A stretch of 64,000 bases of DNA from Candidatus Omnitrophota bacterium (GTDB lineage: Bacteria > Omnitrophota > Gorgyraeia > JABMRN01 > RBG-13-46-9). The DNA is taken from the NCBI GenBank assembly GCA_030605095.1, contig JAUWBJ010000002.1, positions 2,355-66,354 of the forward strand, read 5' to 3'. Below are positions 4,155 to 33,821 of this stretch, piece by piece. Under the pieces are notes generated by a model. That model made no database searches. It was not told where the DNA came from and saw only the letters and a program-made list of their open reading frames with translations. A program made the position numbers and the translations under genes. Numbering within the stretch: the stretch's first letter is position 1; every line of letters begins with the position of its first letter.

Positions 4155-5390
4155 ATGGAGAAGTTTGATGCGATTATAATCGGGGCGGGGCCGGCCGGCA
4201 TGATGGCCGCGATCCGCGCCGGTGAAAGAAACAGAAATATCCTCCTCGTTGAGCGGAACAATACCCCCGGCAAGAAACTCCTCATCTCGGGAAAAGGCAG
4301 GTGTAACCTTACCAATTCTTGCGATATCGAAGACTTTCTCGGGAAATTCTCCCGGTCGCGGCATTTCTTAAGAAATGCCTTCGCAAAGTTTTTTAACACC
4401 GATCTTATGTCATTTTTTGAAAATAACCGCCTTGAACTTAAGAAAGAACATGGCGGCCGCGTATTTCCGGAAAGCGATAAATCAGGCGATATCCTGAATG
4501 TCTTAAAAGCAAAGTTAAAAAATAAGAACATTAAAGTCCTCTCAGGCGAACGTGCCCGCGAGATCATTGTAAAGGATAAAAAAATAGAAGGCATTCTGAC
4601 GTATTCCAATAAGCGTTTTTTAGCGCCGCGCATTGCTATCGCCACAGGCGGCCTATCCTATCCCGGAACAGGTTCGACAGGCGATGGGTATAGGATCGCT
4701 CGAAATCTCGGCCATAAGATCATGCCTTTAAGGCCGGCTCTCTCGCCTATCCTCATTAAAGAAAGATTTATAAGAGACTGGCAGGGCATATCGCTTAAGA
4801 ATGCGCGTTTAACACTTTTTGCCGGCGGTAAAAGAATAGATGAAAGATTCGGCGAGATGCTATTCACCCACTTTGGTTTATCGGGCCCTGTTGTCCTTGA
4901 TATAAGCGCCGATCTCTACGATGCCTTAAAACTCAAAAGTGACGTAACGATATCCATTAACTTCAAGCCCGCCCTGGACTACAAAAAACTGGATGCCAGA
5001 TTACTGCGTGAATTTAAGACAAATTCCGGGAAAAGTATAAAAAATATATTTAAGAATCTTCTGCCCCGGGGTATAATAAGGCGATTTCTTGAATACTGTG
5101 GCGTAAGCGGAAATAAAGGCGCAAGCCAGATCCCAGCAGAGGAAAGAAAGCGTCTTATCAAGGGCTTATTTGATTTAAGATTGACCGTCAAGGGTGTGAT
5201 GCCGGTCAAAGACGGTATCGTTACGAGGGGCGGTGTGAATACAAAAGAGATAAATCCGAAGACCATGGAATCGAGACTTGTAAAGGGGCTTTTTTTCGCG
5301 GGTGAGATTATAGATATAGACGCCAAGACAGGCGGATACAACATGCAGGCAGCATTTTCTACGGGATGGGTTTGCGGTGATAATCTATGA
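4155..5390 (+). CDS. NAD(P)/FAD-dependent oxidoreductase, HI0933/BaiN family
   Basis: N-terminal GxGxxG dinucleotide fold (IIGAGPAGMMAA) and HI0933-like architecture in a 411-aa protein. Confidence 0.8.
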   Translation: MEKFDAIIIGAGPAGMMAAIRAGERNRNILLVERNNTPGKKLLISGKGRCNLTNSCDIEDFLGKFSRSRHFLRNAFAKFFNTDLMSFFENNRLELKKEHGGRVFPESDKSGDILNVLKAKLKNKNIKVLSGERAREIIVKDKKIEGILTYSNKRFLAPRIAIATGGLSYPGTGSTGDGYRIARNLGHKIMPLRPALSPILIKERFIRDWQGISLKNARLTLFAGGKRIDERFGEMLFTHFGLSGPVVLDISADLYDALKLKSDVTISINFKPALDYKKLDARLLREFKTNSGKSIKNIFKNLLPRGIIRRFLEYCGVSGNKGASQIPAEERKRLIKGLFDLRLTVKGVMPVKDGIVTRGGVNTKEINPKTMESRLVKGLFFAGEIIDIDAKTGGYNMQAAFSTGWVCGDNL

Positions 5391-6061
5391 ACCCCGTTAG
5401 AAATTTTGATATACCAGGGAGAAAAAAGGATATTTCTAACGGGGTGAAATATAAAATAATATTAGCGTCGGCGTCAAAGAGGCGCTCGAAGATACTTGAA
5501 GAATGCGGGATACCGCACAGCGTCGTCATAAGTAATGTCCCCGAGAAGATGGACCATAAAAGGGGCGCGAGGTTCAATGTCCTGCATAATGCCCGACTCA
5601 AGACCGAAAAGGTAGCGGGTAGATATAAGGAAGGCTTTGTTATCGGCGTTGATACCGTTGTTTTATTAGGAAAGCGCCTAATCGGAAAACCAAAAACAAG
5701 AAAAGAGGCAAGATCCCTTCTCAACGCATTCTCGGGAAAGACAATCCTTGTCTGTACCGGGCTTTGCGTAATAGACGCTAAAAGAGCAAAATCAAAATGC
5801 GCAGTCGATATATCAAAGGTGCATGTCAAAAAGCTTTCGCGCAAAAAAATAGATAAATTCTTAAGAGTAGCAGGCCCTCATGACAAGGCAGGCGGTTTTT
5901 CGATAGAAGGCCCCGGAACATTCATATTCGATAATATAGAAGGTTCATTCTATAACATACTGGGCCTGCCCATGATGAAACTCTATGGGCTTTTTGAAGA
6001 ATTAGGCGTGGATCTTTTGGGCATGGCGGCATTATCAAATAGAGGAGGAGTTAGCATATGA
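5387..6061 (+). CDS. maf: Maf-like nucleoside triphosphate pyrophosphatase (septum formation protein Maf)
   Basis: KIILASASKRR...GKPKTRKEA...SFYNILGLP is typical of Maf. The real start may be the in-frame GTG at 5444. Confidence 0.8.
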   Translation: MNPVRNFDIPGRKKDISNGVKYKIILASASKRRSKILEECGIPHSVVISNVPEKMDHKRGARFNVLHNARLKTEKVAGRYKEGFVIGVDTVVLLGKRLIGKPKTRKEARSLLNAFSGKTILVCTGLCVIDAKRAKSKCAVDISKVHVKKLSRKKIDKFLRVAGPHDKAGGFSIEGPGTFIFDNIEGSFYNILGLPMMKLYGLFEELGVDLLGMAALSNRGGVSI

Positions 6062-17130: not shown

Positions 17131-18212
17131 GTAGATTTATTCACATATAGCGTCTGGGTGGGATAGGCGAATTCAATGCCACGTTTTTCAAATTCTTCCT
17201 TTACGGCAAAATTAATCTCTTGCTGAATATCCATATATTTATTGTAATCCCTGCTCATAACGTAGTAAACAACTTCAATAACGAGGTTGAAATCGCCGTA
17301 TGAAGAGAAATGCGCGCGGTCAAAAGTCGTATCCTTAACGTTTTTTATCACTTTCTCGATTACGCCTGGTATCTCTTTTAACTTTTTAAGGGGCGTCTGG
17401 TATGTAACGCCAAGCCTGAAAACAACTCTCCTTTTTCCCATCCTTTTATAGTTGCGCACCCTGGATGAGGTAAGGTCTTTGTTGGAAAAAACAACCTGCT
17501 CTCCGCCGAGTGAGCGTATGCGCGTGGTCTTAATTCCGATATGCTCGATGGTTCCTAAATAGTCCCCTATTATGATAAAATCTCCGATTTCAAACGGCTT
17601 GTCAAAAAGAATCGCGAAATAACTGAATAAATCGCCCAGAATCGCCTGGGCCGCTAAAGCTATTGCCACGCCTCCTATACCCAGCCCTGCGATAACGGCT
17701 GATATTTTGAATCCCAGATTGTCCAGGAAAAACGTAATCGCCAGACCCCATACAACTACCTTTACGACTTTTAAAATTCCGGTCAGACTGCGCTCTAAAG
17801 TTTTATCTTTTCCTCTTTTTGCCGAATAAATATCAAACCCGTAATCCGTAAGGGCTATGGCTAAACGCGCTATAAACATCACCAGAATAGCCATCATTAC
17901 AGTGTTGATGCCTTTTAAGAGCAGCGGATTTAAAGTCAGGGTATTTACGCTTATATATAAAACGCCGAAATACGCTAAAGGAAGGGCTATATTTTGAACA
18001 ATTCCAATCAGAAAGTCATCCAGGGTGGTAACGGTTTTCTCCGCCCATTTTTTTAAGCGTTTTAGAAGAAAATGGCGGAATATTTTAATACCGACATAAC
18101 CTGCAAAAAACAGAAGAACGCATATCAAATAATCCGCGATACGGTTTCCGAGAAAAACATTTTCCATAATATCCTGAAACATTTTATCCTCCGCCGGATG
18201 TGGCCCGGACAA
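17127..18212 (-). CDS. Mechanosensitive ion channel, MscS family
   Basis: TM helices followed by the conserved MscS beta-domain (...GDLFSYFAILFDKPFEIGDFI...). Confidence 0.85.
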   Translation of the reverse strand: MSGPHPAEDKMFQDIMENVFLGNRIADYLICVLLFFAGYVGIKIFRHFLLKRLKKWAEKTVTTLDDFLIGIVQNIALPLAYFGVLYISVNTLTLNPLLLKGINTVMMAILVMFIARLAIALTDYGFDIYSAKRGKDKTLERSLTGILKVVKVVVWGLAITFFLDNLGFKISAVIAGLGIGGVAIALAAQAILGDLFSYFAILFDKPFEIGDFIIIGDYLGTIEHIGIKTTRIRSLGGEQVVFSNKDLTSSRVRNYKRMGKRRVVFRLGVTYQTPLKKLKEIPGVIEKVIKNVKDTTFDRAHFSSYGDFNLVIEVVYYVMSRDYNKYMDIQQEINFAVKEEFEKRGIEFAYPTQTLYVNKST

Positions 18213-20148
18213 GTTTTTCGAGCCGCAGCCACTGGTTGTCGATGTCTCTTTGTATTTCTTCTAAGACGTGCTTGTTTCCTTCTTTAAAGAGATGCTTGAA
18301 ACGGCCTTGTGTTCTTAAAAATTCTACAACAGGTTTTCTCTCTTTAGGCTTGTAGGTGAAATGCCAGATTCCTTTTTCAATTTCAATTAACGGCCAATAG
18401 CCTGTCTCTACGGCTAACTTGGAAATTTTCACCGTGTCTTCCTGCGGATAACGCCATCCGCGATGGCACAATGACAAGACATTTAAGAATGCGGGCCCCT
18501 CTACGGCAAACGCTTTCTGTGATTTCGTTACAAGGTCATTCCAGTGCGAAATCGAACCCTGGGCAACGTAAGGGATATTGTGCGCCGCAACAATGGCGGT
18601 GAGGTCCTTTCGTAGTTGGGGTTTGCCATAACTTGCTTTACCGGCAGGGGCTGTCGTTGTAGATGCGCCTTTTGGAGTTGCGCTGGAACGTTGTACCCCG
18701 GTATTTTCGTAGGCTTCGTTATTATAGCAGACATAGACGAAATTATGTCCGCGTTCAAATGCGCCGGACATAGACTGAAGTCCGATGTCGTAAGAATTTC
18801 CGCTTAATGATATTTTCCCGTTTCTTTTCGTAATAACAGTATGGTTCTTCTTTAATTGCGGACAATAAACGAAGCCCTTATAATCTTCTAGAAACACTTG
18901 TTGTTTGTTGCCGTAAAGCCTTCTTCTCGAATATAACTTATGATTTAAATAATTAAACCCTATACCTATTCTATAAACCCCGTCTTCTTTTCTTTGAGAA
19001 ATACTACAGTTTTTACCCAATTTTAAAACCAGCTCCACCATATTATTCATGAGTTCTTTCGAAGCTGTAATAAACTTAATGTGATAACTCCTGCGATTTT
19101 TTTGTTTAGTTATGGAGCCGTCCCCTTCTATCAGCGAACCGAATATTTCTTTAAGATAGTGCTTATTAAGTGATAATACCCATTTTGGTATTTTTTTATT
19201 TTTAAATCCCTTGCCGCATTCTCTTTCCAAATATTCGTATATTTGTTTTGATTGGAAGTCAACAGATCTGTTGCATTTAAACGGAGAAAGACCGAGATCT
19301 TTTAATAGTCTATAGATCTTTTCTTTCTTATCCTTATTTGACTGGTATATGCGTATAAGATAGCCGGATTTGCTTTTATATAAACATCCTTCAGTAATAT
19401 ACCAACCTAAAAATTTTAACCATTTTTTAGTATCAAATTTTGAAAATTCCTTTTGATATCTATATTTAGGAATCTTTGGAACTTCTATTACCATCCACAG
19501 CGTATCGTTTCCATCCCCATACCAATTGAACTTTCTCGAAAAAGCTGTTTTGTATCTTTTTAATAAATCGACGCCTTTGATAAACTCCCATTTACCCTTA
19601 TACCACATAGGCACATTATGATTCGGCGTTATTAAAAAGTCTATAAAACGGCTTTTGCCTCTTATCATTCTACCTTCATATGGATATTTATGCAGTTTTT
19701 CATTCTCCTGCAATTCCAAAATATTGGTTTCGGGATTTACCGACCAAATTTTTTCTCCTACTTTTATATTTTTTATATTTCTAAATCCGTTTTCGGTAAA
19801 TATTTCTGTATCTTCTGAATAGCAACCGCCATCGCCGCCGAAGGCAACGAACTTTATATCTTTAGTAATTTTACCTTTTTTCTTCAAAGCGCGGTAGGCT
19901 GTTTCTGCGCCACTTATTGTCGCAGCCACGTTTTCAAAAGCGTTATGTATAAAAGGAACGTTCCACGCCGTATACGGATATATAGTGGTAGCGACTTCTA
20001 AACATCCTGTCGCGGCTCCTGCTACGATAGGCGACGTTGTTCCCATAAGAATCTGCCTCACGGCGATAGAAGCTCCACAACCCGAGCAAAGCCTATGTCC
20101 CGGAGTCAATCTTTCCGGTATCTTTGATAGCTCTTTAATATTTGCCAT
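18184..20148 (-). CDS. porB: Pyruvate:ferredoxin oxidoreductase beta subunit (TPP-binding) interrupted by an in-frame intein
   Basis: N-extein ...FVAFGGDGG and C-extein SYDIGLQSMSGAFERGHNFVYVCYNNEAYENTGVQRSSATP match PorB. About 343 aa are inserted between them. Confidence 0.8.
   Translation of the reverse strand: MANIKELSKIPERLTPGHRLCSGCGASIAVRQILMGTTSPIVAGAATGCLEVATTIYPYTAWNVPFIHNAFENVAATISGAETAYRALKKKGKITKDIKFVAFGGDGGCYSEDTEIFTENGFRNIKNIKVGEKIWSVNPETNILELQENEKLHKYPYEGRMIRGKSRFIDFLITPNHNVPMWYKGKWEFIKGVDLLKRYKTAFSRKFNWYGDGNDTLWMVIEVPKIPKYRYQKEFSKFDTKKWLKFLGWYITEGCLYKSKSGYLIRIYQSNKDKKEKIYRLLKDLGLSPFKCNRSVDFQSKQIYEYLERECGKGFKNKKIPKWVLSLNKHYLKEIFGSLIEGDGSITKQKNRRSYHIKFITASKELMNNMVELVLKLGKNCSISQRKEDGVYRIGIGFNYLNHKLYSRRRLYGNKQQVFLEDYKGFVYCPQLKKNHTVITKRNGKISLSGNSYDIGLQSMSGAFERGHNFVYVCYNNEAYENTGVQRSSATPKGASTTTAPAGKASYGKPQLRKDLTAIVAAHNIPYVAQGSISHWNDLVTKSQKAFAVEGPAFLNVLSLCHRGWRYPQEDTVKISKLAVETGYWPLIEIEKGIWHFTYKPKERKPVVEFLRTQGRFKHLFKEGNKHVLEEIQRDIDNQWLRLEKLVRATSGGG
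18796..19824 (-). mobile_element. Intein with LAGLIDADG homing-endonuclease domain, inserted in porB
   Basis: Block A CYSEDTEIFT, block B TPNH, LAGLIDADG-like motifs LGWYITEGC and LIEGDGS, ends ...ISLSGN followed by +1 Ser. Confidence 0.7.
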
Positions 20149-20196
20149 TGTCCTTTAAACCTGTCCGACCGCGTAGGTCGGACAGGTTTTGTTAAT

Positions 20197-21375
20197 CTAA
20201 TTTCGAACTCCTAAATAGTTAACGAGTGCTTTAATCCTTCCTGTTTTCTTTATTTCCTCTAACTCTTTATATACCTTTTTTATGTCTTCCGGGAAGATGT
20301 CGCGGCCACCGAGGCCGAATATGTAATCTATAACCGGCGGTCTCTTTTGTGATTCATAAAGCGCTGCTTTAACTTCGCTGAACAAAGGCCCGCCTTCACC
20401 CGAGAACGAATCGCTTCTATCCAGGACAGCTACGGCTTTTAAATTCGAGAGTGCCTTTATAATTCTTTCCTTCGGGAACGGCCTGAAAAATCTCGGCTTG
20501 AGAAGGCCTGCCTTTACCCCTTTTTTTCTTAATTCATCAACCACGCCCTTCGCCGTCCCTGCCGTTGAGCTCAAGACAACAATCGCTACCTCGGCATCAC
20601 TCAGCTTGTATTCTTCAACCAGGTCGTGCGACTTATTAAATGTTTTATTAAATTCCGCCAGGACCGCCGGAATAGTTTTTAAGGCATCTTTCATCGCCTC
20701 TGCTTCCTGGCGTTTATGTTCGAAATAAAAATCCTGCAAATCCAGGGGACCGTATGTTACCGGGTTTTCCACATCGAGAAGGCTGTGTTCCAGAGTATAT
20801 TCGCCTATAAACTTTTTAACCTTGTCGTCAGGAAATGTACTTATACCTTCTACGGCGTGGCTTGTTATAAAACCATCCTGGCAGACCATAACGGGCAGGA
20901 GAATCTTTTTGTGCTCTGCTATTTTTACGGCAACAATGATATTTTCGTAAACCTCCTCGGCATTTTCGGAATAAAGCTGAATCCAGCCCGAGTCCCTTGC
21001 GCCCATTGTATCGGAGTGGTCGCAATGTATGTTTATGGGCCCTGACAAGGCTCTATTCACGACAGGCATAACAATGGGAAGGCGTAAAGACGCCGTTATA
21101 TAAACAATTTCCCACATAAGGGCAAGGCCGTTTGCCGACGTGGCGGTCATTGTCCGCGCACCGCTTGCGGCAGAGCCGACGCACGCGCTCATCGCGCTAT
21201 GTTCGGACTCAACCGGAATCATTTCTGTCTTTACCCTGCCGTCAGCCGCGAACTGGGAAAAATTCATAACAATCTCTGTCTGCGGCGTAATAGGATAAGC
21301 CGCGACGACATCCGGCTCAATCTGTCTCATTGCCTCAGCAGCAGCCTGGTCTCCCGTTAATGCGGTTAATTTCAT
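20197..21375 (-). CDS. porA: Pyruvate:ferredoxin oxidoreductase alpha subunit
   Basis: 392 aa. PorA-like N-terminus (YPITPQTEI...), in operon order with porD and porB. Confidence 0.85.
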   Translation of the reverse strand: MKLTALTGDQAAAEAMRQIEPDVVAAYPITPQTEIVMNFSQFAADGRVKTEMIPVESEHSAMSACVGSAASGARTMTATSANGLALMWEIVYITASLRLPIVMPVVNRALSGPINIHCDHSDTMGARDSGWIQLYSENAEEVYENIIVAVKIAEHKKILLPVMVCQDGFITSHAVEGISTFPDDKVKKFIGEYTLEHSLLDVENPVTYGPLDLQDFYFEHKRQEAEAMKDALKTIPAVLAEFNKTFNKSHDLVEEYKLSDAEVAIVVLSSTAGTAKGVVDELRKKGVKAGLLKPRFFRPFPKERIIKALSNLKAVAVLDRSDSFSGEGGPLFSEVKAALYESQKRPPVIDYIFGLGGRDIFPEDIKKVYKELEEIKKTGRIKALVNYLGVRN

Positions 21376-21650
21376 CCCTTCTCCATTTTAATACACTTTA
21401 CCGGGCAGATGCTCGCGCATATCCCGCAACCCTTGCAGTAGTCATAGTCAAATCCTTCCATTTTTCCGTCTTTTACAAGAACGGAGGAATCGGGGCAGTA
21501 TATCCAGCATTGAAGGCAATTTATGCATTTGGGTTTATCCACAACCGGCTTAAAAGTCCGCCATGAACCTGTCTTATATTCCCTGGCAGTACCGCCTTTA
21601 TCTATAATTCCGGCTATCGGAATCTCTTTCCAGCCTTTTTTCTTTTTCAC
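21372..21650 (-). CDS. porD: Pyruvate:ferredoxin oxidoreductase delta subunit (2x[4Fe-4S] ferredoxin)
   Basis: CINCLQCWIYCP and CKGCGICASICP cluster motifs. GTG start. Confidence 0.8.
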   Translation of the reverse strand: MKKKKGWKEIPIAGIIDKGGTAREYKTGSWRTFKPVVDKPKCINCLQCWIYCPDSSVLVKDGKMEGFDYDYCKGCGICASICPVKCIKMEKG

Positions 21651-21764
21651 CCCGCCCTTCCTTTTCTTTTGATGCCAATCATTGTCTTTATTTTTGCTAA
21701 ACTACTCCCCCTCTTCCTTATGTAATTTGTTTTAATCTTTTTATTAGGAAGGGCGGGGTTCATC
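21647..21764. repeat. Inverted-repeat intergenic element, copy A (CACCCCGCCCTTCC ... GGAAGGGCGGGGTTCATC)
   Basis: 13-bp terminal inverted repeats around about 90 bp, with homology to copy B at 28934-29047. The left arm provides AGGAAGG SD plus the GTG start of porD. The right arm overlaps the porG stop. Confidence 0.5.
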
Positions 21765-22332
21765 CTGTCTTTGTTTCCTTGAAGGCGCGTTTTATCGCTT
21801 TTATGTTCGCTTCGGTTTTTTCTTCGCCGAGCTTTTTAAGGAATTTCTTCCGCACTTTTTTTTCCAGCGCTTCAACCGGCACAATCGGTTTAATCTTCAA
21901 AAGAGCGCCCAGCATCGGCGTATTGGGCATCGGCATACCGAGTATCTCCAGTGAAATTTTTGTCGCATCGCAGGTGGCAACTTTTCCTTTTTTGTATCTC
22001 GCCTTCCAGCGCACGCTATCAACTGTCTCGGTCGTATTCACAATCAAGATACCGCTCTCGTCCAGGCCATCGGCAACATCAACAGTCTCCAGTAATGTCG
22101 GGTCTATCACAACAACAATATCGGGATTTGTTACAGGGGAATGGATATTTATCGGCCGGTCGCTGATTCTGGTATAGGCGCGAATAGGCGCGCCTGCCCT
22201 TTCAGGGCCGTATTCGGGAAAGGCCTGAATAGACTTACCTGTATCCAGGGCCGCTTCAGCCAAAAACTGGGCGGCTGTCTTGGCGCCCTGGCCTCCCCGG
22301 CCATGCCACCTTATTTCTAATAAATCCTTCAT
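21760..22332 (-). CDS. porG: Pyruvate:ferredoxin oxidoreductase gamma subunit
   Basis: RGGQGAKTAAQ motif typical of POR gamma subunits. Confidence 0.85.
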   Translation of the reverse strand: MKDLLEIRWHGRGGQGAKTAAQFLAEAALDTGKSIQAFPEYGPERAGAPIRAYTRISDRPINIHSPVTNPDIVVVIDPTLLETVDVADGLDESGILIVNTTETVDSVRWKARYKKGKVATCDATKISLEILGMPMPNTPMLGALLKIKPIVPVEALEKKVRKKFLKKLGEEKTEANIKAIKRAFKETKTG

Positions 22333-22349
22333 TTTGTCGGCTTTTAGAC

Positions 22350-23135
22350 TTAAACAGCGGGGCCTTGAGGACTTTCGCCTTCCTTAGCCAGCCCTAAGTA
22401 ATAACCCATGAAAACGAGCATCATAACAACAGGAATGTAAGATTGAACGGCGCTATTTACAATGGTTATTATTACCCGGGTTAGTATAAGTGGCAGCGGG
22501 ATAGTGATAAGTCCGATTATAAATCCGATTACTAAAGAAACAACAACGCTGATAGCAATCAAAAACAGAAATATCTTTAATACTTCCCAGAAATTATTTC
22601 GGCTTACGCTTATGCCTTTTTTAATCGCCTGTAAAACGCGGTTCTCATCGGCAACGATTGAGTAAACCGGGAATAAAAGTATAACCACGGCAACAAGCGC
22701 AACGGTTGCTGCTATAACCGTAACGATAGATCTCATGAAGGCATTATTAGCGATAAGCAAAACGCCGCTTCCGACCAAGAACAGAACTAACGCAATTCCC
22801 AGCGCTATTAATACATAAAGTGAGAGGAGGCCCAGAATTCTCAAATAGTACTTTTTTCCGTATGCGATAAAATTAGATATGTCGCAGGCGCCCGTTTTGT
22901 GAATATCCCTGGTGAGCCCTAACGCCCCGCCTTGCAAAAAGATAAAAATAGTGAAAAATATCAAGGTGAGAAGGAATGAGATCGTCGCTATGACGGGATT
23001 TCCTGTATTCTCCGGCGTTGTAAGCGGTAAACTCATCAGGCCCATAACAACGTTAAGGATAAAAAATATTAATACCACTTTAAGCAGTTTTTGGCTTAAT
23101 AAGAATCCTTTTTTTACAGATTCAACTATATTCAT
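22350..23135 (-). CDS. Hypothetical polytopic membrane protein
   Basis: 261 aa with 6 or more hydrophobic helices. Confidence 0.4.
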   Translation of the reverse strand: MNIVESVKKGFLLSQKLLKVVLIFFILNVVMGLMSLPLTTPENTGNPVIATISFLLTLIFFTIFIFLQGGALGLTRDIHKTGACDISNFIAYGKKYYLRILGLLSLYVLIALGIALVLFLVGSGVLLIANNAFMRSIVTVIAATVALVAVVILLFPVYSIVADENRVLQAIKKGISVSRNNFWEVLKIFLFLIAISVVVSLVIGFIIGLITIPLPLILTRVIITIVNSAVQSYIPVVMMLVFMGYYLGLAKEGESPQGPAV

Positions 23136-23214
23136 CTTAACCTCCCGCTCTTTTCGAGCTTTAAAATTAAAGATACACTATAAATAAAGCGCTGTCAAGA
23201 CCTTATTGCGTTTA

Positions 23215-23814
23215 TCAAGCTTCTCTTTTACCCTCGAAGGCTTTATAAAGGGTCGCTTGATCCGCGTATTCGAGATTTCCGCCCACGGGCATACCGTAAG
23301 CAATCCTGTATAGCTTTATGGCCATGGGCTTCAGCAATTTAACAAGGTAAAGGGCTGTGGCCTCGCCTTCCGTGTTGGAATCGGTCGCGATTATGACTTC
23401 TTTTATCTTTTCTTTTCTGATTCTTTTTACCAGCTCGTCGATTTTTAAGTCCTTGGGGCCCACGCCGTCTAAAGGCGATAATGCCCCCAGCAAAACGTGA
23501 TATACGCCGTTAAAGTGCCCCATCTTCTCTATCGAAATCACGTCGCTCGGTTTTTCTACGACGCACAAAGTCGCCTTATCCCTGGCGTCGTTACCGCATA
23601 TGTCGCAGAGCTCCTGATCACTCAAGTTATTACAGGTCTTGCAGAATTTCACGCTGTTTTTAAGTTTTACTATTGCATCCGAAAGCTTTTTTGCTTCTTC
23701 AGCCGGCTTTGTCAAAATGAAAAAGGCAAGCCGCTGGGCTGATTTCGGGCCTATGCCCGGCATTTTGCTAAATTCCGTTATCAACGCCTTCATCGAACCC
23801 GGCAGGCCCTTCAT
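23215..23814 (-). CDS. recR: Recombination protein RecR
   Basis: HhH motif, C4 zinc finger (CKTCNNLSDQELCDIC) and Toprim domain. Confidence 0.9.
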   Translation of the reverse strand: MKGLPGSMKALITEFSKMPGIGPKSAQRLAFFILTKPAEEAKKLSDAIVKLKNSVKFCKTCNNLSDQELCDICGNDARDKATLCVVEKPSDVISIEKMGHFNGVYHVLLGALSPLDGVGPKDLKIDELVKRIRKEKIKEVIIATDSNTEGEATALYLVKLLKPMAIKLYRIAYGMPVGGNLEYADQATLYKAFEGKREA

Positions 23815-25514
23815 GCTTTCTCCTTATTCCTATTCTCTCTTATATCCACAACCCTTCCCTCAAATATGTCAACCGCTGACTCTACTATCGGGTCTACCCT
23901 GTTTGGCCGGTTTTTTCCGGCTTCTTCAATTTCGCTCTCTTCAATACTTGTTATCCCGGATGCGGCGGATTCTTCAATTTGCCCTTCCAGGGCCTCAATA
24001 CTTAAAGATACGTCTTCTCCTGTAATGCTTTTAATGGCTTCTTCTACGAATTTTTTGTTTGTATTGACCTCTAACGCCTCTTTATGCAATGAATTATTCT
24101 TGTTAAACCCTATCGCAAGGACATTATCTTCCACCTTGAGCAGCTTTCCTTCGGAAAGGAACGTAGCAATCGACATTTTTTTGTTCTTTACGAAATTTAA
24201 AACCTTGGCCCAGGAGCTTCTTATCTTCTGCAGGAGGAGTATGTCGCGCTCCGCAGCAACTTCTTCTTCCGGTATCGCGGGCGGTTCTGCGGATGGCTTT
24301 ACAGACGGTCTTACAATTTTTTCGGATTTCTCCGCCGTGGCATGCCTACTTTGAATTCCTCCTCTGGCGAAGGAGGATTCTATCCGTGAAAGCCTGTCCA
24401 GAATTTCTTTAATTGAAGTGAGCCTGGTTCTATCAGTCAATTTAATCAAGGAAATTTCCAGGGGAACTCGCGCCAGGTTTGTCTTCTTCATTAAATCCAT
24501 TGCGGCAGATAATGTGTAGGTGACGTATAAAATTTCATCGAGCGAGAGGAGCTTACTCTGCTCCCGTAACTTATAATAGTCCTCTTCGGAAAGCGTTATG
24601 TAGACGCTACTCGTATCCTTTGCTATTTTCGCCACCATAAGATTTCTGAAGTAGTCTATGATGCTTGAAGCTACAAAAATAGGGTCCTTTCCGCTATTTA
24701 CGAGGCCATCGATGATGTTTAACACATTTTCCTTTTTGTTATTTATTATAGAGTCGGCTAAATCAAAGAGGACATCCTGCTCTAACAAGCCCAGAACCTT
24801 CGTAACGTCATGGGCCTGCACTTTTCCTTTTGTAAAGGAGAGGAGTTGATCGAGAATTATCTCCGCGTCTCTCATGCTCCCGTCGGCCTGCCTTGCGATT
24901 AAAAAGATTGCTTCATCGTTAACGTCAAGTTTTTCCTTTTTTCTAATCTCCTCTAATTTTTTAGCTATATCCCTTTTGGGTATTTTTCTAAAGTCGAAGC
25001 GCTGGCATCTGGAAATGATTGTCGGTAATACCTTGTAGGGCCTGGTGGTCGCAAAGATAAATTTCACATGGAGCGGCGGTTCCTCCAGCGTCTTAAGTAG
25101 GGCGTTAAAGGCCTCCTGGGTGAGCATATGGACTTCGTCGATAATGTATATCCGGAATTTTCCGCGCACAGAGGCAAATTTTACATTTTCTCTTAAGTTC
25201 CTTATTTCATCGATTCCCCTGTTGGAAGCGCCGTCGATTTCTATAACATCCATGCCTATCCCCCGCAAAATTTCCTGGCAGGAAGCACATTTATTGCACG
25301 GCTCGGGACGCGGGCCCTTCTCGCAGTTTAAACTCTTGGCAAGGATTCTCGCAGTCGATGTCTTGCCGACCCCACGCGGGCCGGTAAATAGATACGCATG
25401 CGCAACCTTATCCATAGCGATAGCGTTCTTAAGCGTAGTCGCGATATGCTCCTGTCCTATAATTTCATCAAACGCCTGCGGCCTGTATTTCCTCGCAAAT
25501 GGTAGGTATGCCAT
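23811..25514 (-). CDS. dnaX: DNA polymerase III subunit gamma/tau
   Basis: ARKYRPQAFDEIIGQEHI...GPRGVGKTS... Overlaps recR by 4 bp; no ybaB lies between them. Confidence 0.9.
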   Translation of the reverse strand: MAYLPFARKYRPQAFDEIIGQEHIATTLKNAIAMDKVAHAYLFTGPRGVGKTSTARILAKSLNCEKGPRPEPCNKCASCQEILRGIGMDVIEIDGASNRGIDEIRNLRENVKFASVRGKFRIYIIDEVHMLTQEAFNALLKTLEEPPLHVKFIFATTRPYKVLPTIISRCQRFDFRKIPKRDIAKKLEEIRKKEKLDVNDEAIFLIARQADGSMRDAEIILDQLLSFTKGKVQAHDVTKVLGLLEQDVLFDLADSIINNKKENVLNIIDGLVNSGKDPIFVASSIIDYFRNLMVAKIAKDTSSVYITLSEEDYYKLREQSKLLSLDEILYVTYTLSAAMDLMKKTNLARVPLEISLIKLTDRTRLTSIKEILDRLSRIESSFARGGIQSRHATAEKSEKIVRPSVKPSAEPPAIPEEEVAAERDILLLQKIRSSWAKVLNFVKNKKMSIATFLSEGKLLKVEDNVLAIGFNKNNSLHKEALEVNTNKKFVEEAIKSITGEDVSLSIEALEGQIEESAASGITSIEESEIEEAGKNRPNRVDPIVESAVDIFEGRVVDIRENRNKEKA

Positions 25515-25720
25515 ATTGGTTTTTCCTTTTCAACAAATACCTTTATATCAAAAAATAGCCCAAAAAGCAACTCAATTACGCCTCTTGGGTATGACCTACG
25601 AACAAATCGCCAAAAGTTTAAACGTCGGTGTAATAACTGCTACTAAGGCTTGTAAATATAAAAGGAGGAACTGTTTCTAATTTGTGGCACCACGATATTC
25701 CAAGTCTGCATCGGAAGTTC

Positions 25721-26173
25721 TCAAGTCCATCTAAATATTTTCTTTAGCTTCGCCGGTGGTTTAATTATATATACAACTATAGTAACAAGAGCGATAAATA
25801 TTGTAGGAATCAATATTACTAATGGATTAACATCCGGATAAACTAATTTTTCGATATAGCGGACTATAAACGAACCGTGATACCCAATTTTAGAATTGTA
25901 TCCTCCCCTTAAAAAATTTTCCAGTATAGTTAAAGGACAATACTCTCTTAAAAGAGTCAATAGCCCAACATAGACTATACCGCAAAGATGAAGTGTCCTG
26001 AATAACCATCTGTCAAAGAATTTAGGGTTAAAGAATCCTCTTAAAGTAAGGAAGAATCCCGAAAGCATAAAGAGTATCCATAAAAAATGTATAACTACGA
26101 TTAAATCAGCAAAAATTTTGTACAGCAACTTTACCCCGTTAGAAAAGGCTCTGTCCTTCATCCCGTTAGACAA
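25721..26173 (-). CDS. Hypothetical membrane protein
   Basis: 150 aa with 3-4 TM segments. Confidence 0.35.
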   Translation of the reverse strand: MSNGMKDRAFSNGVKLLYKIFADLIVVIHFLWILFMLSGFFLTLRGFFNPKFFDRWLFRTLHLCGIVYVGLLTLLREYCPLTILENFLRGGYNSKIGYHGSFIVRYIEKLVYPDVNPLVILIPTIFIALVTIVVYIIKPPAKLKKIFRWT

Positions 26174-26188
26174 ATTTTCTAACGGGGT

Positions 26189-28936
26189 TTATATTTCTTC
26201 TTTAAGTCTCATAACCTCTTGTCTTATTCCTAAGGTTATGGCTTCATAGTCATCTTTAGCGCCTAGTCTCGATCCTTCTTTTTTAAGTTCTTCTGCGTTA
26301 TGCGGTCTTCCGAAAACAATCGTAACAGGGTGGGGTCGTCTGGGAAAACGATTTGTTCTTGGCCAGGATTCATAGGAACCTTTGATATACACAGGAACCA
26401 ATCGAATGCTCAGTTCTTTTGCCAATATCCCGACTCCTTTTTTGAATTCTTTAACTTCTCCGTCAATTGACCTTGCTCCTTCGGGAAAGATGCAAGCTGT
26501 TTTGCCATTTCTCAAAATATAAGCACAAGCCTGTATCGCATCTATTAATTGCGCGCCAGGGTCGATAGGAATTATTCTGATTAATTTTACGATATTTCTA
26601 ATTATTGGAACTTCGAAATAGGCTCTATAACCAAGGAAGAACATATGTTTTTTTAACCATCGAGGTAGGGCTGCAACAATTAGGAACCCGTCCAAATAAC
26701 TACCGTGATTGGGGCAGAGAATAAATGCTTTGTTCGAAGGTAAATTTTTTATTCCAAAAACTTTAACCTGCCAGATAAGTTTAAATATTATATATAACAT
26801 CCCAGAGACTAATAGCGTGAAAAACCGCGCTATCCAACCGGGAAATAAATCTATTTTTTCAATTATATCTTTGGCTGGATTGGTCTTTAAAATATCACTC
26901 CATAAAGATAATCGAGTCTGGATTGCTGAGACTTCCTCGGTCCTTGGTTCTTTCTTTAAAATCAATTTCTCAATTTCAAGAATAAGTTCTCTTACTATGA
27001 AAATTTTAACCATTACAGAATCCGGTATGTCAATCTTTAAAATCTTTTCTAATGCAACCATTAATTCCGCGCGCCCTAACGAATCAAGGCCAAGATCGAT
27101 TTCCAAGTGGTCGTCCAACCGGATTTGCCTCTCTAAATCCGTTTCTTTACTTAAGGTTTTTATTATTTTCTTGGCAATTCCCGAAGAGAGAATTTTAAGG
27201 TCTTCACCTGTAAGGGAAATCTCCTCATCTATCTTTCTCAACCCCACGCCCATAAGTTCATCTAAATATCTATTCTTAATTTCAAATCTTTTTAACTTCC
27301 CTAAACGTGTCTGGGGTAAATCCTCACTTGTAACAACAAAGCCCATAATCCGTTTGTAGGGAGGGTATTGTTTAGACAGATTCTCCAAATCCCACTTAAT
27401 CATTCCATAAATATTAACCTCGCCAACCTTGCGGTAATAGTCCAAATCAGGCACAATGACCGCCATAAGCTTTTCCTCTTCTCTTTTACCAGTTGCTAAT
27501 ACGCATAATCCTTTAATAAAAGGGCTCTTGGCATAATGGGATTCCACCTCTTCGGGAGATATATTCTTTCCCGAGCTTAACACAATCAACTCTTTCTTCC
27601 TTCCCGTAAGACGGAGATACCCCTCTTTGTCCAGATAACCCAAATCTCCAGAATAGAACCAATTATCCTTTAAAACCTTTCTCGTCTCTTCGACTTCTTT
27701 ATAGTAGCCTCTCATAACATTAGGGCCTTTGATTGCCACCTCGCCTACGCCGTATTCGTCAGGTTCAGCAATTCTTAAGTTCACATCTGGAATTACTTTC
27801 CCCACAGAGCCTATTTTTTGTTTTTTCAATGGATTAAAAGTTGCTACCGGCGATGTTTCAGTAAGTCCGTATCCTTCCAGGATTGTAAAACCGATTTTCA
27901 CAAGAAACCTTGCTGCCTCTTCATTTAACTTAGCACCGCCACAAGCAAAAAATCTTAAATTTTTTCCGAAGGCACGGTGAATCTTTGACAATGCCAGCTT
28001 GGCCAAGTTAATTCCCGTAAACTTTCTCACCAACCACAATATCTCTATAAACCCTAAAAGGGAGAGTCTCATCAAAAACGGGACTTTCTTTATTCCATCT
28101 ACTATATGCTTATAAAACATATAAAAAAGCTGAGGTACTCCCGTTAATATCGTCACACCTGTCTTTCTCATACACGCAAGCAATTCCTCACTCTTAAGGC
28201 TTGAAATGTAGGTAATCTTGCTTTGAGAAAAAAGTGGTATAACGAGGGTCACCATAAATGGAAATGAATGATGCAGCGGTAATATAGACAGAACATTATC
28301 TTTATCTGAAAAGAGTTTTAATTTATCAATACTTTGAGAATTGGAATAAAAATTTTCATGGGTTAACATAACACCTTTTGGCCTGCCGGTAGTGCCTGAG
28401 GTATAAAGAATAGAGGCGATATCCTGGGGAGATGCCTCTGGCATAGATGTTATGGACTTTAAATCTGATACGGCAGATATCGTTTCCGAAAAAGAAATAA
28501 TTTCTTCGGACGATTTTTCAATGTCGAGGGCTATGATTTGTTGTAATGAAGGCACGCTATTAGTGAAGCCCGTAAATAACGAAAGTAATTTACTGGAGGT
28601 AAAGGCTACCTTGCTTTCTGAATCACTTAGAAAAAATTTTATCTCTTCTTGTCCGGATTGAGGATCAAGAGGGATAGCTATGGCCCCTCGAAGCATAATG
28701 CCAAAGTAGATCATTCCCCATTCAGGCCTGTTTTCCAGAACAATAGCGACTCTATCGCCTTTTTTTATCCCCGCTTTAAGTAAAGAATGTGCAACAGATT
28801 GAGAGACCCCGTAAAGCTCTTTATAGGTATACTTGACATAGACATCTTCTTTTTTCATTTGCATAACAATTCTATCAGGAAATTGATCAACTATTTCTCT
28901 TAATTTACCATGTAGAGTATATAATTTCTTATTCAC
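26189..28936 (-). CDS. Tri-domain acyl-ACP synthetase / lysophospholipid acyltransferase (AMP-binding + PP-binding + PlsC domains; Aas-like)
   Basis: AMP-binding motifs (YTSGTTGRPKG), carrier-domain serine (LGLDSLGRAELM), and the C-terminal HX4D acyltransferase motif (NHGSYLDG). GTG start is supplied by IR element copy B. Confidence 0.7.
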   Translation of the reverse strand: MNKKLYTLHGKLREIVDQFPDRIVMQMKKEDVYVKYTYKELYGVSQSVAHSLLKAGIKKGDRVAIVLENRPEWGMIYFGIMLRGAIAIPLDPQSGQEEIKFFLSDSESKVAFTSSKLLSLFTGFTNSVPSLQQIIALDIEKSSEEIISFSETISAVSDLKSITSMPEASPQDIASILYTSGTTGRPKGVMLTHENFYSNSQSIDKLKLFSDKDNVLSILPLHHSFPFMVTLVIPLFSQSKITYISSLKSEELLACMRKTGVTILTGVPQLFYMFYKHIVDGIKKVPFLMRLSLLGFIEILWLVRKFTGINLAKLALSKIHRAFGKNLRFFACGGAKLNEEAARFLVKIGFTILEGYGLTETSPVATFNPLKKQKIGSVGKVIPDVNLRIAEPDEYGVGEVAIKGPNVMRGYYKEVEETRKVLKDNWFYSGDLGYLDKEGYLRLTGRKKELIVLSSGKNISPEEVESHYAKSPFIKGLCVLATGKREEEKLMAVIVPDLDYYRKVGEVNIYGMIKWDLENLSKQYPPYKRIMGFVVTSEDLPQTRLGKLKRFEIKNRYLDELMGVGLRKIDEEISLTGEDLKILSSGIAKKIIKTLSKETDLERQIRLDDHLEIDLGLDSLGRAELMVALEKILKIDIPDSVMVKIFIVRELILEIEKLILKKEPRTEEVSAIQTRLSLWSDILKTNPAKDIIEKIDLFPGWIARFFTLLVSGMLYIIFKLIWQVKVFGIKNLPSNKAFILCPNHGSYLDGFLIVAALPRWLKKHMFFLGYRAYFEVPIIRNIVKLIRIIPIDPGAQLIDAIQACAYILRNGKTACIFPEGARSIDGEVKEFKKGVGILAKELSIRLVPVYIKGSYESWPRTNRFPRRPHPVTIVFGRPHNAEELKKEGSRLGAKDDYEAITLGIRQEVMRLKEEI

Positions 28937-29047
28937 CCCGCCCTTCCTTTCTTTTCAATGCAATCCCTGTTTTTATCTTTTGCAATCACTTCGTTCTTCA
29001 TTATATTATTATTCATTGTAATTTTTTTAGGAAGGGCGGGGTTCATC
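28934..29047. repeat. Inverted-repeat intergenic element, copy B
   Basis: Same terminal inverted repeats and homologous interior as copy A. It encodes the last residues (DEPRPS) and stop of the MFS gene, and the SD plus GTG start of the Aas-like gene. Confidence 0.5.
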
Positions 29048-30274
29048 TCCAGCCATCGCTCCTTGTATACTATCTGGAACTTTTTGAAGTATAATAAAGC
29101 CCATGACTAAAAATGGCAATAAACTGAGGATAGCCAACCGGTACTTTAAAATCCCCAAAAAGCCGAATCCCCAGACACAAACTCCCCAGATAAGTGGCCC
29201 GATAATTGAAGCGGACTTTCCTACTAAGCCATAAAAACCAAAGACCTCTCCTACCATTTGTGGTGGAGATAAATCTACCACTAATGCCCGCGCACTTGTC
29301 CAGGTTGCACCTAAACATATTCCTACCAATGGTCCCACAACCCAGAATGCGGTTTTGCTAAAAGATATAACCACCAAAAGGATGCTTATACACCATACCC
29401 CCAAGACAATACTTAAAGTTCGCTTTGAGCCGAACCTATCTGTAATGAATCCTGTTACAAATGAACTCAGAATAGCAAAGACTGTAGATATAATATAGAA
29501 GGCGATAATCTCATGGTCTGTAAATCCCATAACTTTTTTGGTGTAAACAGACATAAATACAATAAGGGTATTAATAGCATTAAGGGTTATAAATGCAGCA
29601 ATTAAAAAATTAAAGAGCGCCGGATACTCCCTGATATGTATAAATGTCTCTTTTACTTTCCTGAAACTGTCTATTATTCGAATTCCGAATTTATCTATTC
29701 TTTTTACCAACCGATCTTTCACAAATAGAAAACAGGGAAGGGAAAATAAAAGAAAGAGAATTGCCGTAGGGACAAATGCTGCTTGCCTTCCATATCTTAA
29801 AACAAATGGTCTGACTAAAAGTAATCCGGCAATCGTGCCGCAATATCCCAGACTTACACCGTAACCGGAGACTCGACCTGTCTGACCTTTGTCGCTTATC
29901 TCGGGAAGCAAAGCATTGTAGAATATAGCAGCTGTCTGATAGCAAAAATTGGCAATGGCAAAGAACAGAAGTCCTAAAACTAATCTATTTACCAGTCCTA
30001 TTAATGCGGTAAAGGCACAACAGATTAAGGTGAAGAACATTAAAAAGGGCATCCTTCTTCCCAGTCTATCTGAAATCGCTCCCATTATCGGGGAAGAGAT
30101 AGCCGCCAATAACATCGAGCCGGACAAGGCCCAGCTGTATAAAATATCCTCTCCCTTCATATCCACAGTTACCCACAAAGCAAAGTAAAGGGAGATTACA
30201 TTCATGGCAAATATAGTATTAGCAAAGTCATACATCGACCAGGAGAAGATTGTAAGTTTTCTATTAATCTTCAT
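29027..30274 (-). CDS. MFS transporter, probable lysophospholipid transporter (LplT-like)
   Basis: 12-TM MFS fold. Adjacent to the Aas-like gene, as lplT-aas is in E. coli. Confidence 0.6.
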   Translation of the reverse strand: MKINRKLTIFSWSMYDFANTIFAMNVISLYFALWVTVDMKGEDILYSWALSGSMLLAAISSPIMGAISDRLGRRMPFLMFFTLICCAFTALIGLVNRLVLGLLFFAIANFCYQTAAIFYNALLPEISDKGQTGRVSGYGVSLGYCGTIAGLLLVRPFVLRYGRQAAFVPTAILFLLFSLPCFLFVKDRLVKRIDKFGIRIIDSFRKVKETFIHIREYPALFNFLIAAFITLNAINTLIVFMSVYTKKVMGFTDHEIIAFYIISTVFAILSSFVTGFITDRFGSKRTLSIVLGVWCISILLVVISFSKTAFWVVGPLVGICLGATWTSARALVVDLSPPQMVGEVFGFYGLVGKSASIIGPLIWGVCVWGFGFLGILKYRLAILSLLPFLVMGFIILQKVPDSIQGAMAGDEPRPS

Positions 30275-30308
30275 TGATTACTTTTTGGCTATCCTTGATT
30301 TTTTAACT

Positions 30309-30962
30309 CTACATGGGTAATACATAAAATAATATTGCAAAATAGTGACATATGCTACCGCCTAAGACAAATAAATGCCATATTGCATGGTGGAAAGGGA
30401 GCTTATCAAAAAAGTGAAAAATAACTCCCACGCTATAGAGTATTCCTCCCATAACTAACCAGCTTATTCCGCCGAACGGAATCTTTTTTACTATAGGATA
30501 TACGGCAATAAGTGCAAACCATCCCATTGTCAAATAACTAATGGTAGATAAAACTAGAAACCTATTTACAAAGAACATTTTAAGCACTATGCCTATTAGT
30601 GCTAACCCCCAAATTGCACCAAAAAAAGTCCAGCCCCACGGCCCTCTCAATGAAACAAGTGTAAAAGGAGTGTATGTGCCGGCAATCAAAAGATAAATGG
30701 CAGAATGATCGATTATTTTAAATATATAGTTTATGCGTCCAGATGAGAAATAAAAACTATGATATAAAGTAGAAGCAGCGTATAGTATAATCAAACTACC
30801 GCCATAAATGCTGAAGCTAACAATTCGCCAGGTATCTCCGTGAATCTTTGCCAATACAACAAGAATGACCAAACCTGCTATACTCAAAAAAAGACCAATA
30901 CCATGTGTGACGCTATTTGCTATCTCTTCTATTAAAGACGACTTATCTTTCTCGTTTTCCAT
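30309..30962 (-). CDS. Hemolysin III / PAQR-family membrane protein
   Basis: 7-TM protein with HxxxH (VTHGIG) and C-terminal HH motifs. Confidence 0.8.
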   Translation of the reverse strand: MENEKDKSSLIEEIANSVTHGIGLFLSIAGLVILVVLAKIHGDTWRIVSFSIYGGSLIILYAASTLYHSFYFSSGRINYIFKIIDHSAIYLLIAGTYTPFTLVSLRGPWGWTFFGAIWGLALIGIVLKMFFVNRFLVLSTISYLTMGWFALIAVYPIVKKIPFGGISWLVMGGILYSVGVIFHFFDKLPFHHAIWHLFVLGGSICHYFAILFYVLPM

Positions 30963-33701: not shown

Positions 33702-33702
33702 T

Positions 33703-33790: not shown

Positions 33791-33821
33791 ACTCCTTTGT
33801 TTTGGGGGCAGGTACCGAAAA

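What the first reader, a model, noticed from the sequence alone, without database searches (positions are those of the whole stretch)
21647..21764. Inverted-repeat intergenic element (copy A) that supplies the SD and GTG start of porD
This element of about 118 bp has 13-bp terminal inverted repeats (ACCCCGCCCTTCC / GGAAGGGCGGGGT). On the coding (minus) strand the right arm overlaps the porG stop. The left arm reads AGGAAGGGCGGGGTG and contributes the Shine-Dalgarno and the GTG initiation codon of porD. In the mRNA the two arms can pair and occlude that SD. A homologous copy does exactly the same job at 28934-29047. It is either a MITE-like mobile repeat exapted as a translation-initiation region or a conserved translational-control hairpin.
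Basis: seen in the sequence. Interest (0 to 1): 0.55.

Follow-up and report, generated by a model that had tools for sequence, protein, structure and literature searches.

The report
Mobile repeat that replaces start codons
The hairpin between porG and porD is a roughly 110-bp mobile repeat of uncultivated Omnitrophota bacteria; it has landed exactly on the start codon of porD and of at least three other genes in this window, and it carries its own ribosome-binding site and GTG start, so the interrupted gene can still be translated.

Summary
Two homologous elements have perfect 13-14 bp terminal inverted repeats. Each one's gene-proximal arm holds the only plausible ribosome-binding site (SD, AAGGA) and GTG start of the downstream gene.

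It is not a conserved por regulator. A strain with 97%-identical PorG has the bare junction ...AGAATGAAAAAG..., where the porG TGA overlaps the porD ATG. The window has ...ATGAA[CCCC...GGGG]TGAAAAAG... at that site. Copy B, and a third copy with different arms at maf, also have empty sites in relatives.

All three are insertions at an ATGAA start codon, with TGAA present on both sides afterwards. About 40 further copies occur in about 17 Omnitrophota and allied MAGs. Nearly all sit in front of unrelated housekeeping genes such as rplD, tsaD, pdxJ and proC.

The old ATG now opens a reading frame of about 37 codons that runs through the element and stops at the TGA of GTGA. This frame is open in 15 of 23 in-frame copies, against 1.6 expected by chance.

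Best reading: a MITE-like (miniature inverted-repeat) element that does little harm because it relays ribosomes from the old start to its own. The transposase and the relay itself are not demonstrated.

Novelty: a new variant of a known kind.

The parts
21646..21758 (-). Copy A: the 113 bp present in the window but absent from the empty site in L143 (CCCC...GGGG plus the second TGAA)
   Evidence: Alignment A2: L143 reads ...AAAGACAGAATGAAAAAGAAAAAGGGCTGG; the window reads ...GGATGAA[CCCC..GGGG]TGAAAAAGAAAAAAGGCTGG.
21747..21759 (-). Copy A, gene-distal arm ACCCCGCCCTTCC
   Evidence: It pairs with 21649-21661 in the minimum-free-energy fold.
21649..21661 (-). Copy A, gene-proximal arm GGAAGGGCGGGGT. 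With the two A's before it, it gives AAGGA (21659-21663). It also supplies the G and T of the porD GTG (21648-21650).
21759..21763 (-). Former porD start ATGAA. ATG is 21761-21763. TGA at 21760-21762 is the porG stop. TGAA at 21759-21762 is the distal copy of the direct repeat.
21646..21649 (-). Proximal copy of TGAA. Its TGA is the stop of the leader frame and overlaps the GTG start (GTGA).
21647..21763 (-). Leader reading frame of copy A: 38 codons plus stop (MNPALPNKKIKTNYIRKRGSSLAKIKTMIGIKRKGRAG*), from the old ATG to the TGA of GTGA
21705..21719 (-). Internal imperfect copy of the proximal arm (AAGGAAGAGGGGGAG) that can pair with the distal arm
   Evidence: 12 of the 13 distal-arm bases are paired when the 5' part is folded alone, at -15.3 kcal/mol.
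28932..29041 (-). Copy B: the 110 bp absent from the empty site in L145
   Evidence: Alignment A3: L145 reads ...AAAGATGAATAAGAGACTATAT; the window reads GGAGATGAA[CCCC..GGGG]TGAATAAGAAATTATAT.
29030..29042 (-). Copy B, distal arm. It is translated as the last codons of the MFS gene (…GDEPRPS*, stop TAA at 29027-29029).
28935..28947 (-). Copy B, proximal arm with the ribosome-binding site and the GTG (28934-28936) of the 915-aa AMP-binding/PP-binding/acyltransferase gene
28933..29046 (-). Leader reading frame of copy B: 37 codons plus stop, from ATG 29044-29046 to the TGA of GTGA
5387..5448 (+). Copy C (family 2): ATGAA-CCCCGTTAGAAAT...ATTTCTAACGGGG-TGAA. It lies between the HI0933-like gene (stop TGA 5388-5390) and maf (GTG 5444-5446). 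The 57-bp insertion is in frame with maf.
   Evidence: Covariance-model hit of 27 bits, E = 0.002. Empty site in L057.
26129..26191 (-). Copy D (family 2, rearranged): TAA-ACCCCGTTAGAAAA / GTCTAACGGGATGAAGG / TTTTCTAACGGGGTAAAG. It lies between the stop of the Aas-like gene and the DUF2784 gene (probable ATG 26159-26161).
   Evidence: Only a weak covariance-model hit (15 bits).

Best explanation
The element is a non-autonomous, MITE-like mobile repeat found in some Omnitrophota lineages.

**Anatomy.**
- The termini are CCCCG.../...CGGGG, extended to 13-14 bp inverted repeats.
- Family 1 has CCCTTCC/GGAAGGG inside these termini. Family 2 has TTAGA(C/A).../...TCTAA.
- The A/G-rich core is 40-95 nt and encodes no transposase.

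**Insertion.** It inserts at (A)TGAA. In the surviving copies this is nearly always the ATG-AAx start of a gene, often an ATGA stop/start overlap inside an operon. TGAA is left on both sides.

**Consequence for the gene.**
- The old ATG is separated from its gene.
- The last G of the element plus the duplicated TGAA make GTGA, which is a new GTG start.
- AAGGA, 8 nt upstream of that GTG, serves as the ribosome-binding site.

**Proposed mode of expression (inferred, not shown).**
1. Ribosomes still load at the old start or arrive from the upstream gene.
2. They translate the distal arm and, in many copies, a leader frame of about 37 codons through the whole element. This melts the -32 kcal/mol stem that would otherwise bury the ribosome-binding site and the GTG.
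3. They terminate at the TGA that overlaps the GTG and reinitiate there.

The insertion therefore passes the gene's original translation signals on to the new start, which would explain why it is tolerated in front of essential genes.

**Shown:** the insertion, the repeated TGAA, the GTG as the only usable start, the excess of open leader frames, and the pairing potential.
**Inferred:** the relay, the role of the hairpin, and the transposition enzyme.
For: **Insertion polymorphism.**
- Empty sites: L143 for copy A (PorG 97% identical), L145 for copy B, L057 for copy C.
- Many other orthologous porG-porD junctions are a bare ATGA overlap (L064, L073, L069-71).
- L061 and L062 carry a family-2 element at the same junction.

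**Copy number and distribution.**
- A scan of 185,579 species genomes found 56 stretches. About 37 of them lie in about 17 low-GC Omnitrophota or allied MAGs, including 13 stretches in the CP070837.1 chromosome.
- Distribution is patchy. Only L062 matched in 480 kb from relatives, and only L062 turned up in 932 kb by arm search.

**Position.**
- The GTG (or ATG) at the proximal end opens a long ORF in nearly all copies.
- The downstream genes are unrelated housekeeping genes, and their Pfam domains start at residues 1-7.

**Flanks.**
- The left and right 4-mers are identical in 33 of 41 copies.
- Three of the four copies whose right flank is not TGAA carry the same variant on the left (TGGA, TGAG, TAAA).
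- Tandem arrays joined through TGAA or TGAG occur in L032 and L046.

**Arms.** 95.5% of cells are paired, and 9 of 14 pairs show changes on both sides, including C-G to T-A exactly where the start is ATG instead of GTG.

**Leader frame.**
- The old ATG is in frame with the TGA of GTGA in 23 of 36 copies.
- 15 of those 23 are open throughout, against 1.6 expected from loop shuffles.
- Stops inside loops by frame are 32 / 68 / 85. Copies with no stop are 17 / 4 / 2.

**Folding.** MFE is -32 kcal/mol with z near -5. The mean over 36 copies is -37.7 kcal/mol.

**Ribosome-binding site.** Other genes in the window use canonical AAGGAGGT-type sites.
Against: - No transposase or autonomous partner with these termini was found in the sequence held. 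Mobility is therefore inferred from polymorphism only.
- 8 of 41 copies have unlike flanking 4-mers. L003 and L017 have TGAA on one side only. A 4-bp target duplication is therefore not proven against a model in which the element carries its own TGAA.
- 21 of 36 leader frames are shifted or interrupted. The full relay cannot be required everywhere.
- With an ATGAA target and loss of insertions inside genes, about 55% of tolerated sites would be gene starts. The observed share is above 90%, which is not fully explained.
- There is no expression data.
- Arm covariation is equally expected for transposase-binding ends, so it does not prove an RNA role.
- The few arm mismatches are C-A or C-T, not G-U.
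Confidence: 0.75

Rival explanations
1. It is a host cis-regulatory RNA module, a two-state translational switch that has spread as a cassette. The distal arm pairs either with an internal decoy, leaving the ribosome-binding site and GTG free, or with the proximal arm, shutting them off. On this reading it is kept because it regulates the genes it precedes, not merely tolerated.
For: - The distal arm can pair with an internal imperfect copy of the proximal arm in 31 of 36 copies, against 39% of shuffled loops. The mean energy of the 5' part is -18.8 kcal/mol, against -12.8 for shuffles.
- The same three-part layout recurs in family 2 with co-varying sequence (L061, L062, window copy D).
- The arms are identical between species while the loops have drifted.
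Against: - Downstream genes share no function.
- The element is dispensable in a 97% relative.
- No Rfam family matches, even at E <= 1.
- The decoy can be explained as a relic of tandem or nested insertion (L032, L046).
- No ligand-pocket-like conserved core exists, and the loops are specific to each genome.
Confidence: 0.15
2. It is a REP/BIME-like or IS200/IS605-derived palindromic element (PATE). A HUH tyrosine transposase or RAYT moves it as single-stranded DNA. It inserts 3' of a TGAA target and ends in its own TGAA, rather than being a cut-and-paste MITE with a 4-bp duplication.
For: - L003 and L017 have TGAA on one side only.
- Tandem head-to-tail arrays occur at TGAA (L032, L046).
- The empty sites are seamless.
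- Omnitrophota porG-porD spacers hold many other palindromic repeats.
Against: - A phmmer search with IS608 TnpA and an E. coli RAYT sequence, both recalled from memory (a weak test), found nothing among 6,176 ORFs.
- The two ends pair with each other instead of each forming its own subterminal hairpin.
- There is no GTAG-type REP head.
- Variant right-hand 4-mers are mirrored on the left, as expected for a target duplication.
Confidence: 0.1
3. The element is really a small gene. The 37-38 aa basic peptide (MNPALP...KGRAG) would be the selected product, and the inverted repeat would be incidental.
For: - The leader frame is open far more often than chance allows.
- A G-x-S-LAK-[IVL]-K stretch recurs in window copy A, L053 and L054.
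Against: - Only the residues encoded by the arms are conserved.
- The peptides differ between subfamilies, and many copies are shifted or interrupted.
- The copy in a 97% relative is simply absent.
Confidence: 0.04

Closest known systems
Bacterial MITEs such as the Neisseria Correia element (CREE), ERIC and RUP, as summarised in PMC3184786
   Same: - About 100-150 bp, with terminal inverted repeats and no transposase.
- Many copies, with presence/absence polymorphism between strains.
- Located next to or between co-transcribed genes.
- Fold into long hairpins in the mRNA.
   Different: - The termini and core are unrelated.
- The flanking repeat is TGAA, not TA.
- Copies sit exactly on start codons in one orientation.
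- It supplies the ribosome-binding site and start codon rather than a promoter. No sense-strand sigma-70 match was found.
Neisseria REP2 and Borrelia IR-A/IR-B repeats (PMC3184786, citing Morelle 2003 and Dunn 1994)
   Same: These are repeats found immediately upstream of many genes. They carry a ribosome-binding site and the initiation codon, which is fused to the downstream ORF.
   Different: - REP2 has no terminal inverted repeats, carries a promoter, and is linked to a co-regulated gene set.
- The element here has perfect inverted repeats, empty sites, a duplicated target, and unrelated downstream genes.
Rickettsia palindromic elements (RPE; listed in PMC3184786; their properties are from my own knowledge of Ogata et al. 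2000)
   Same: These are palindromic repeats of about 100-150 bp that survive inside translated sequence because they keep a reading frame open. Copy C here (57 bp, in frame with maf) behaves this way.
   Different: - RPEs sit inside coding regions and become part of the protein.
- Family-1 copies here are 2 mod 3 in length. They end the old frame at a TGA and restart at an overlapping GTG.
Translational coupling through an unfolded hairpin, for example secM-secA, the MS2 coat-replicase pair, and ATGA/GTGA termination-reinitiation in operons (my own knowledge)
   Same: An upstream ORF must be translated to open a stem that hides the downstream ribosome-binding site. The stop and start codons overlap.
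   Different: In those systems the device is a fixed part of one operon. Here it is carried by a mobile repeat and installed at many genes. The function here is inferred only.

Membership tests
MITE (non-autonomous inverted-repeat transposable element) | Terminal inverted repeats | tested here: met
   13-14 bp perfect repeats in both copies. 95.5% of cells are paired over 41 copies.
MITE (non-autonomous inverted-repeat transposable element) | Short, with no transposase gene | tested here: met
   Elements are 57-120 bp. The only ORF is a variable leader of about 37 codons.
MITE (non-autonomous inverted-repeat transposable element) | Multiple dispersed copies | tested here: met
   4 in the window. 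At least 14 exact copies in CP070837.1, plus imperfect ones.
MITE (non-autonomous inverted-repeat transposable element) | Filled and empty sites in related genomes | tested here: met
   Copies A, B and C each have an empty site.
MITE (non-autonomous inverted-repeat transposable element) | Target-site duplication | tested here: inconclusive
   TGAA occurs once in empty sites and twice in filled sites. The flanks match in 33 of 41 copies, and variants are mirrored in 3 of 4. However, 8 copies have unlike flanks, and an element-borne TGAA cannot be excluded.
MITE (non-autonomous inverted-repeat transposable element) | A cognate autonomous IS with the same termini | tested here: not met
   No long element bounded by these arms was found in about 1.7 Mb of held sequence. 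Whole genomes could not be scanned.
REP / BIME (RAYT-associated) | Palindrome of about 35 nt with a conserved GTAG-type head, usually downstream of genes, with a RAYT gene in the genome | tested here: not met
   Size, ends and position all differ. No Y1/RAYT hit was found in held ORFs, although the seeds were recalled from memory, so the test is weak.
Neisseria REP2-type repeat | [quoted passage not shown] | tested here: not met
   Ribosome-binding site and start codon: yes. But the element has inverted repeats and no sense-strand promoter match.
Integron attC site | RYYYAAC at the 5' end and GTTRRRY at the 3' end of an imperfect palindrome that follows a cassette ORF | tested here: not met
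   Family-2 arms contain GTTAGAC and GTCTAAC, but in the opposite order (GTTRRRY first). Family 1 lacks them.
Known structured cis-regulatory RNA (Rfam) | Match to a curated covariance model | tested here: not met
   No match at E <= 1 over 20000-31000, apart from one chance snoRNA hit elsewhere in that range.

The most novel reading that the evidence does not exclude
These elements have evolved to be translationally transparent, which would let them colonise the start codons of essential genes. On this reading:
- the target (A)TGAA is chosen so that the duplicated TGAA plus the terminal G of the element creates a GTGA stop/start overlap;
- the core is kept free of stops in the frame of the old ATG;
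- the inverted repeat doubles as an RNA gate that ties the new start to the old initiation signals.

A stronger form is that integration is actively directed to start codons, or that hosts have recruited the distal-arm/decoy/proximal-arm layout as a portable translational switch.
Probability: 0.35. Interest if true: 0.75.

Novelty: new variant of a known kind. Interest (0 to 1): 0.55.

Why it matters
- It shows a way for selfish DNA to sit on the most sensitive base triplet of essential genes (rplD, tsaD, porD) without killing the host.
- It explains a class of odd GTG starts, spurious N-terminal extensions and roughly 37-aa "hypothetical" ORFs that gene callers will produce in Omnitrophota MAGs. 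In the window, maf is called 19 codons too long. In L057, PorD is called at 116 aa against 92 aa because of a different in-frame insert at the same junction.
- It offers a compact natural cassette (stop, hairpin, ribosome-binding site, overlapping restart) whose coupling behaviour can be tested directly.
- It is also a strain-level marker in an uncultivated phylum.

Tried and rejected
- **Rfam at a permissive threshold:** nothing.
- **por-specific regulator:** rejected by the empty orthologous junctions.
- **Regulon:** rejected, because the downstream genes are unrelated.
- **attC-like site:** the core motifs are in the wrong order.
- **Promoter carried by the element:** no consistent sense-strand match.
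- **Intrinsic terminator:** no T-run follows the stem.
- **Y1/RAYT transposase in the held ORFs:** none, but the seeds were recalled from memory, so the test is weak.
- **Autonomous IS with the same ends:** only pairs of separate short copies were found.
- **Phage carriage:** no viral contig has the arm pair.
- **Long retention at orthologous sites (L025/L029, L005/L039):** inconclusive. The upstream flanks are unrelated, so independent insertions cannot be excluded.
- **Source accession:** the exact-sequence cluster look-up returned no accession or name.
- **Literature:** searches found no description of this element.

Full report
**1. Observation**

Genes in this part of the window run on the minus strand.

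Copy A lies between porG (21760-22332) and porD (21372-21650).
- Read 5'->3' on the coding strand it is ...GGA TGA ACCCCGCCCTTCC T-(loop)-A GGAAGGGCGGGGT GAA AAA G....
- The arms are 13 nt, or 14 with the adjacent T/A. The loop is 85 nt.
- The porG stop abuts the distal arm. The porD GTG (21648-21650) shares two bases with the proximal arm.

Copy B (28932-29046) has identical ends and a 70%-similar core.
- It lies between a UMF1-type MFS gene and a 915-aa AMP-binding/PP-binding/acyltransferase gene.

The arm 13-mer occurs four times exactly. With up to two mismatches it occurs 8 times, against 0.9 expected. As RNA, both copies fold at about -32 kcal/mol, with z = -4.7 and -5.7.

**2. It is a repeat family of Omnitrophota**

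PorG and MFS homologues place the window in Candidatus Omnitrophota. I scanned one genome per species for CCCGCCCTTCC-N65-95-GGAAGGGCGGG. This returned 56 stretches.
- About 19 are high-GC chance palindromes.
- About 37 lie in about 17 low-GC Omnitrophota or allied MAGs, including 13 stretches of the 1.55-Mb chromosome CP070837.1.

Shorter and imperfect copies lie nearby. Almost all copies read [A/G]TGAA-CCCCGCCCTTCC...GGAAGGGCGGGG-TGAA. Loops are specific to each genome.

A second family shares the outer bases but has different, fully compensated inner arms (ACCCCGTTAGAcc/ggTCTAACGGGGT). It occurs in L061 and L062 and twice in the window, at 5387-5448 and 26129-26191.

Over 41 distinct copies, 95.5% of arm cells pair, and 9 of 14 pairs show changes on both sides. 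Covariance model R1 finds only these four copies in the window. It finds only L062 in 480 kb from relatives. The distribution is therefore patchy.

**3. It is an insertion on a start codon**

- **Copy A.** L143 comes from a strain with 97%-identical PorG and near-identical flanks. It reads ...AAAGACAGAATGAAAAAGAAAAAGGGCTGG, where the porG TGA overlaps the porD ATG. The window has 113 extra bases at that point...ATGAA[CCCC...GGGG]TGAAAAAG....
- **Copy B.** L145 (MFS 92% identical) reads ...GATGAATAAGAG..., against ...GATGAA[...]TGAATAAGAA... in the window.
- **Copy C.** L057 reads ...ATATGAAAATAATATTAGC.

Many other porG-porD junctions are plain ATGA overlaps. Others hold unrelated palindromes or a family-2 element.

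TGAA is single in empty sites and double in filled sites. The flanks match in 33 of 41 copies. Three of the four copies with a non-TGAA right flank carry the same variant on the left. L032 and L046 are tandem arrays joined through TGAA or TGAG.

**4. What it does to the gene**

The proximal GTG, or ATG where the outer pair is T-A, opens a long ORF in nearly all copies.

Ten downstream proteins were tested: ribosomal protein L4, TsaD, ProC, PdxJ, an XerC/D-like recombinase, RnfD, CutA, a radical-SAM enzyme, the Aas-like enzyme and Maf. Their Pfam domains start at residues 1-7. The GTG is therefore the real N-terminus, and the genes do not form a regulon.

The genome uses canonical ribosome-binding sites elsewhere. 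The element offers AAGGA 8 nt before the GTG.

**5. Leader frame**

The old ATG remains in place. In 23 of 36 family-1 copies it is in frame with the TGA of GTGA.
- 15 of those 23 are open throughout (33-41 codons), against 1.6 expected from loop shuffles.
- Stops inside loops number 32 in this frame, against 68 and 85 in the other two frames.
- Loops free of stops number 17, against 4 and 2.

Both window copies are open (38 and 37 codons). Copy C is in frame with maf.

The peptides are conserved only where the arms encode them. I therefore read the open frame as selection for ribosome passage, not for a protein.

**6. Proposed mechanism (inferred)**

Ribosomes from the old start or the upstream cistron unwind the stem. 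They terminate at the UGA of GUGA and restart.

Without that traffic, the stem hides the ribosome-binding site and the GUG. The stem averages -37.7 kcal/mol.

An internal decoy of the proximal arm can pair with the distal arm in 31 of 36 copies, against 39% of shuffles. It may be a relic of tandem insertion or a kinetic aid. This remains open.

**7. What remains unexplained**

- No transposase was found, and no viral copies.
- Gene-start occupancy is above 90%. An ATGA A target plus loss of insertions inside genes predicts about 55%.

**8. Comparison with known elements**

The element meets the MITE criteria, except that no autonomous partner is known. It resembles Neisseria REP2 and the Borrelia IR repeats in supplying a ribosome-binding site and a start codon (PMC3184786), but those repeats lack inverted repeats. 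It resembles RPEs in keeping a reading frame open. No Rfam family matches.

**Verdict.** The feature is real, the mobile-repeat reading is right, and the por-regulator reading is wrong. It is a new variant of a known kind.

Noticed in passing
window 18184-20148 (-): PorB is 654 aa here, against about 310 aa in relatives. Its TPP-binding domain is split after GGDGG by a roughly 340-aa insert with a LAGLIDADG_3 domain. This looks like an intein carrying a homing endonuclease.
   Followed up: partly
window 20158-20188 (-): The porA-porB spacer holds a perfect 13-bp hairpin, AACCTGTCCGACC-TACGC-GGTCGGACAGGTT. Palindromes with the same GTCCGACC core fill the porG-porD spacer of L063, which suggests a separate REP-like family.
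   Followed up: no
L013 5843-5944; L052 701-800 and 4318-4417; L053 916-1016: CP070837.1 carries an unrelated, fully palindromic element of about 100 bp (CCCGAACCAAAATACT...AGTATTTTGGTTCGGG). It lies in ordinary intergenic DNA, not at gene starts.
   Followed up: partly
L057/L058 10570-10650; L075 about 9850-9930: A different insert of about 70 nt (..GAAGTGAGCGGAGTCCTGAG..) sits directly after the ATGA of porD. It is in frame, so PorD is called with a 24-aa N-terminal extension.
   Followed up: no
L063, L067, L074, L092, L095, L097 (porG-porD spacers): At least six further, mutually unrelated long palindromes occupy the same junction in other lineages. The junction appears to be a hot spot for hairpin repeats.
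   Followed up: no
window 33650-34580 and 47600-53900: A tRNA-rich region has repeated units of 39-131 nt next to tRNA 3' ends (families D1-D5). Their origin is unknown.
   Followed up: no
window 54040-54090 (-): A short hairpin, AAACCCCGCCCTTGC-GT-GCAAGAACGGGGG, resembles the distal arm of the element but lacks the TGAA flanks and has no gene start next to it.
   Followed up: no
window 5387-6061 (+): An ORF caller starting at the old ATG would make Maf 19 residues too long (MNPVRNFDIPGRKKDISNG...). This is an annotation artefact caused by the in-frame element.
   Followed up: yes
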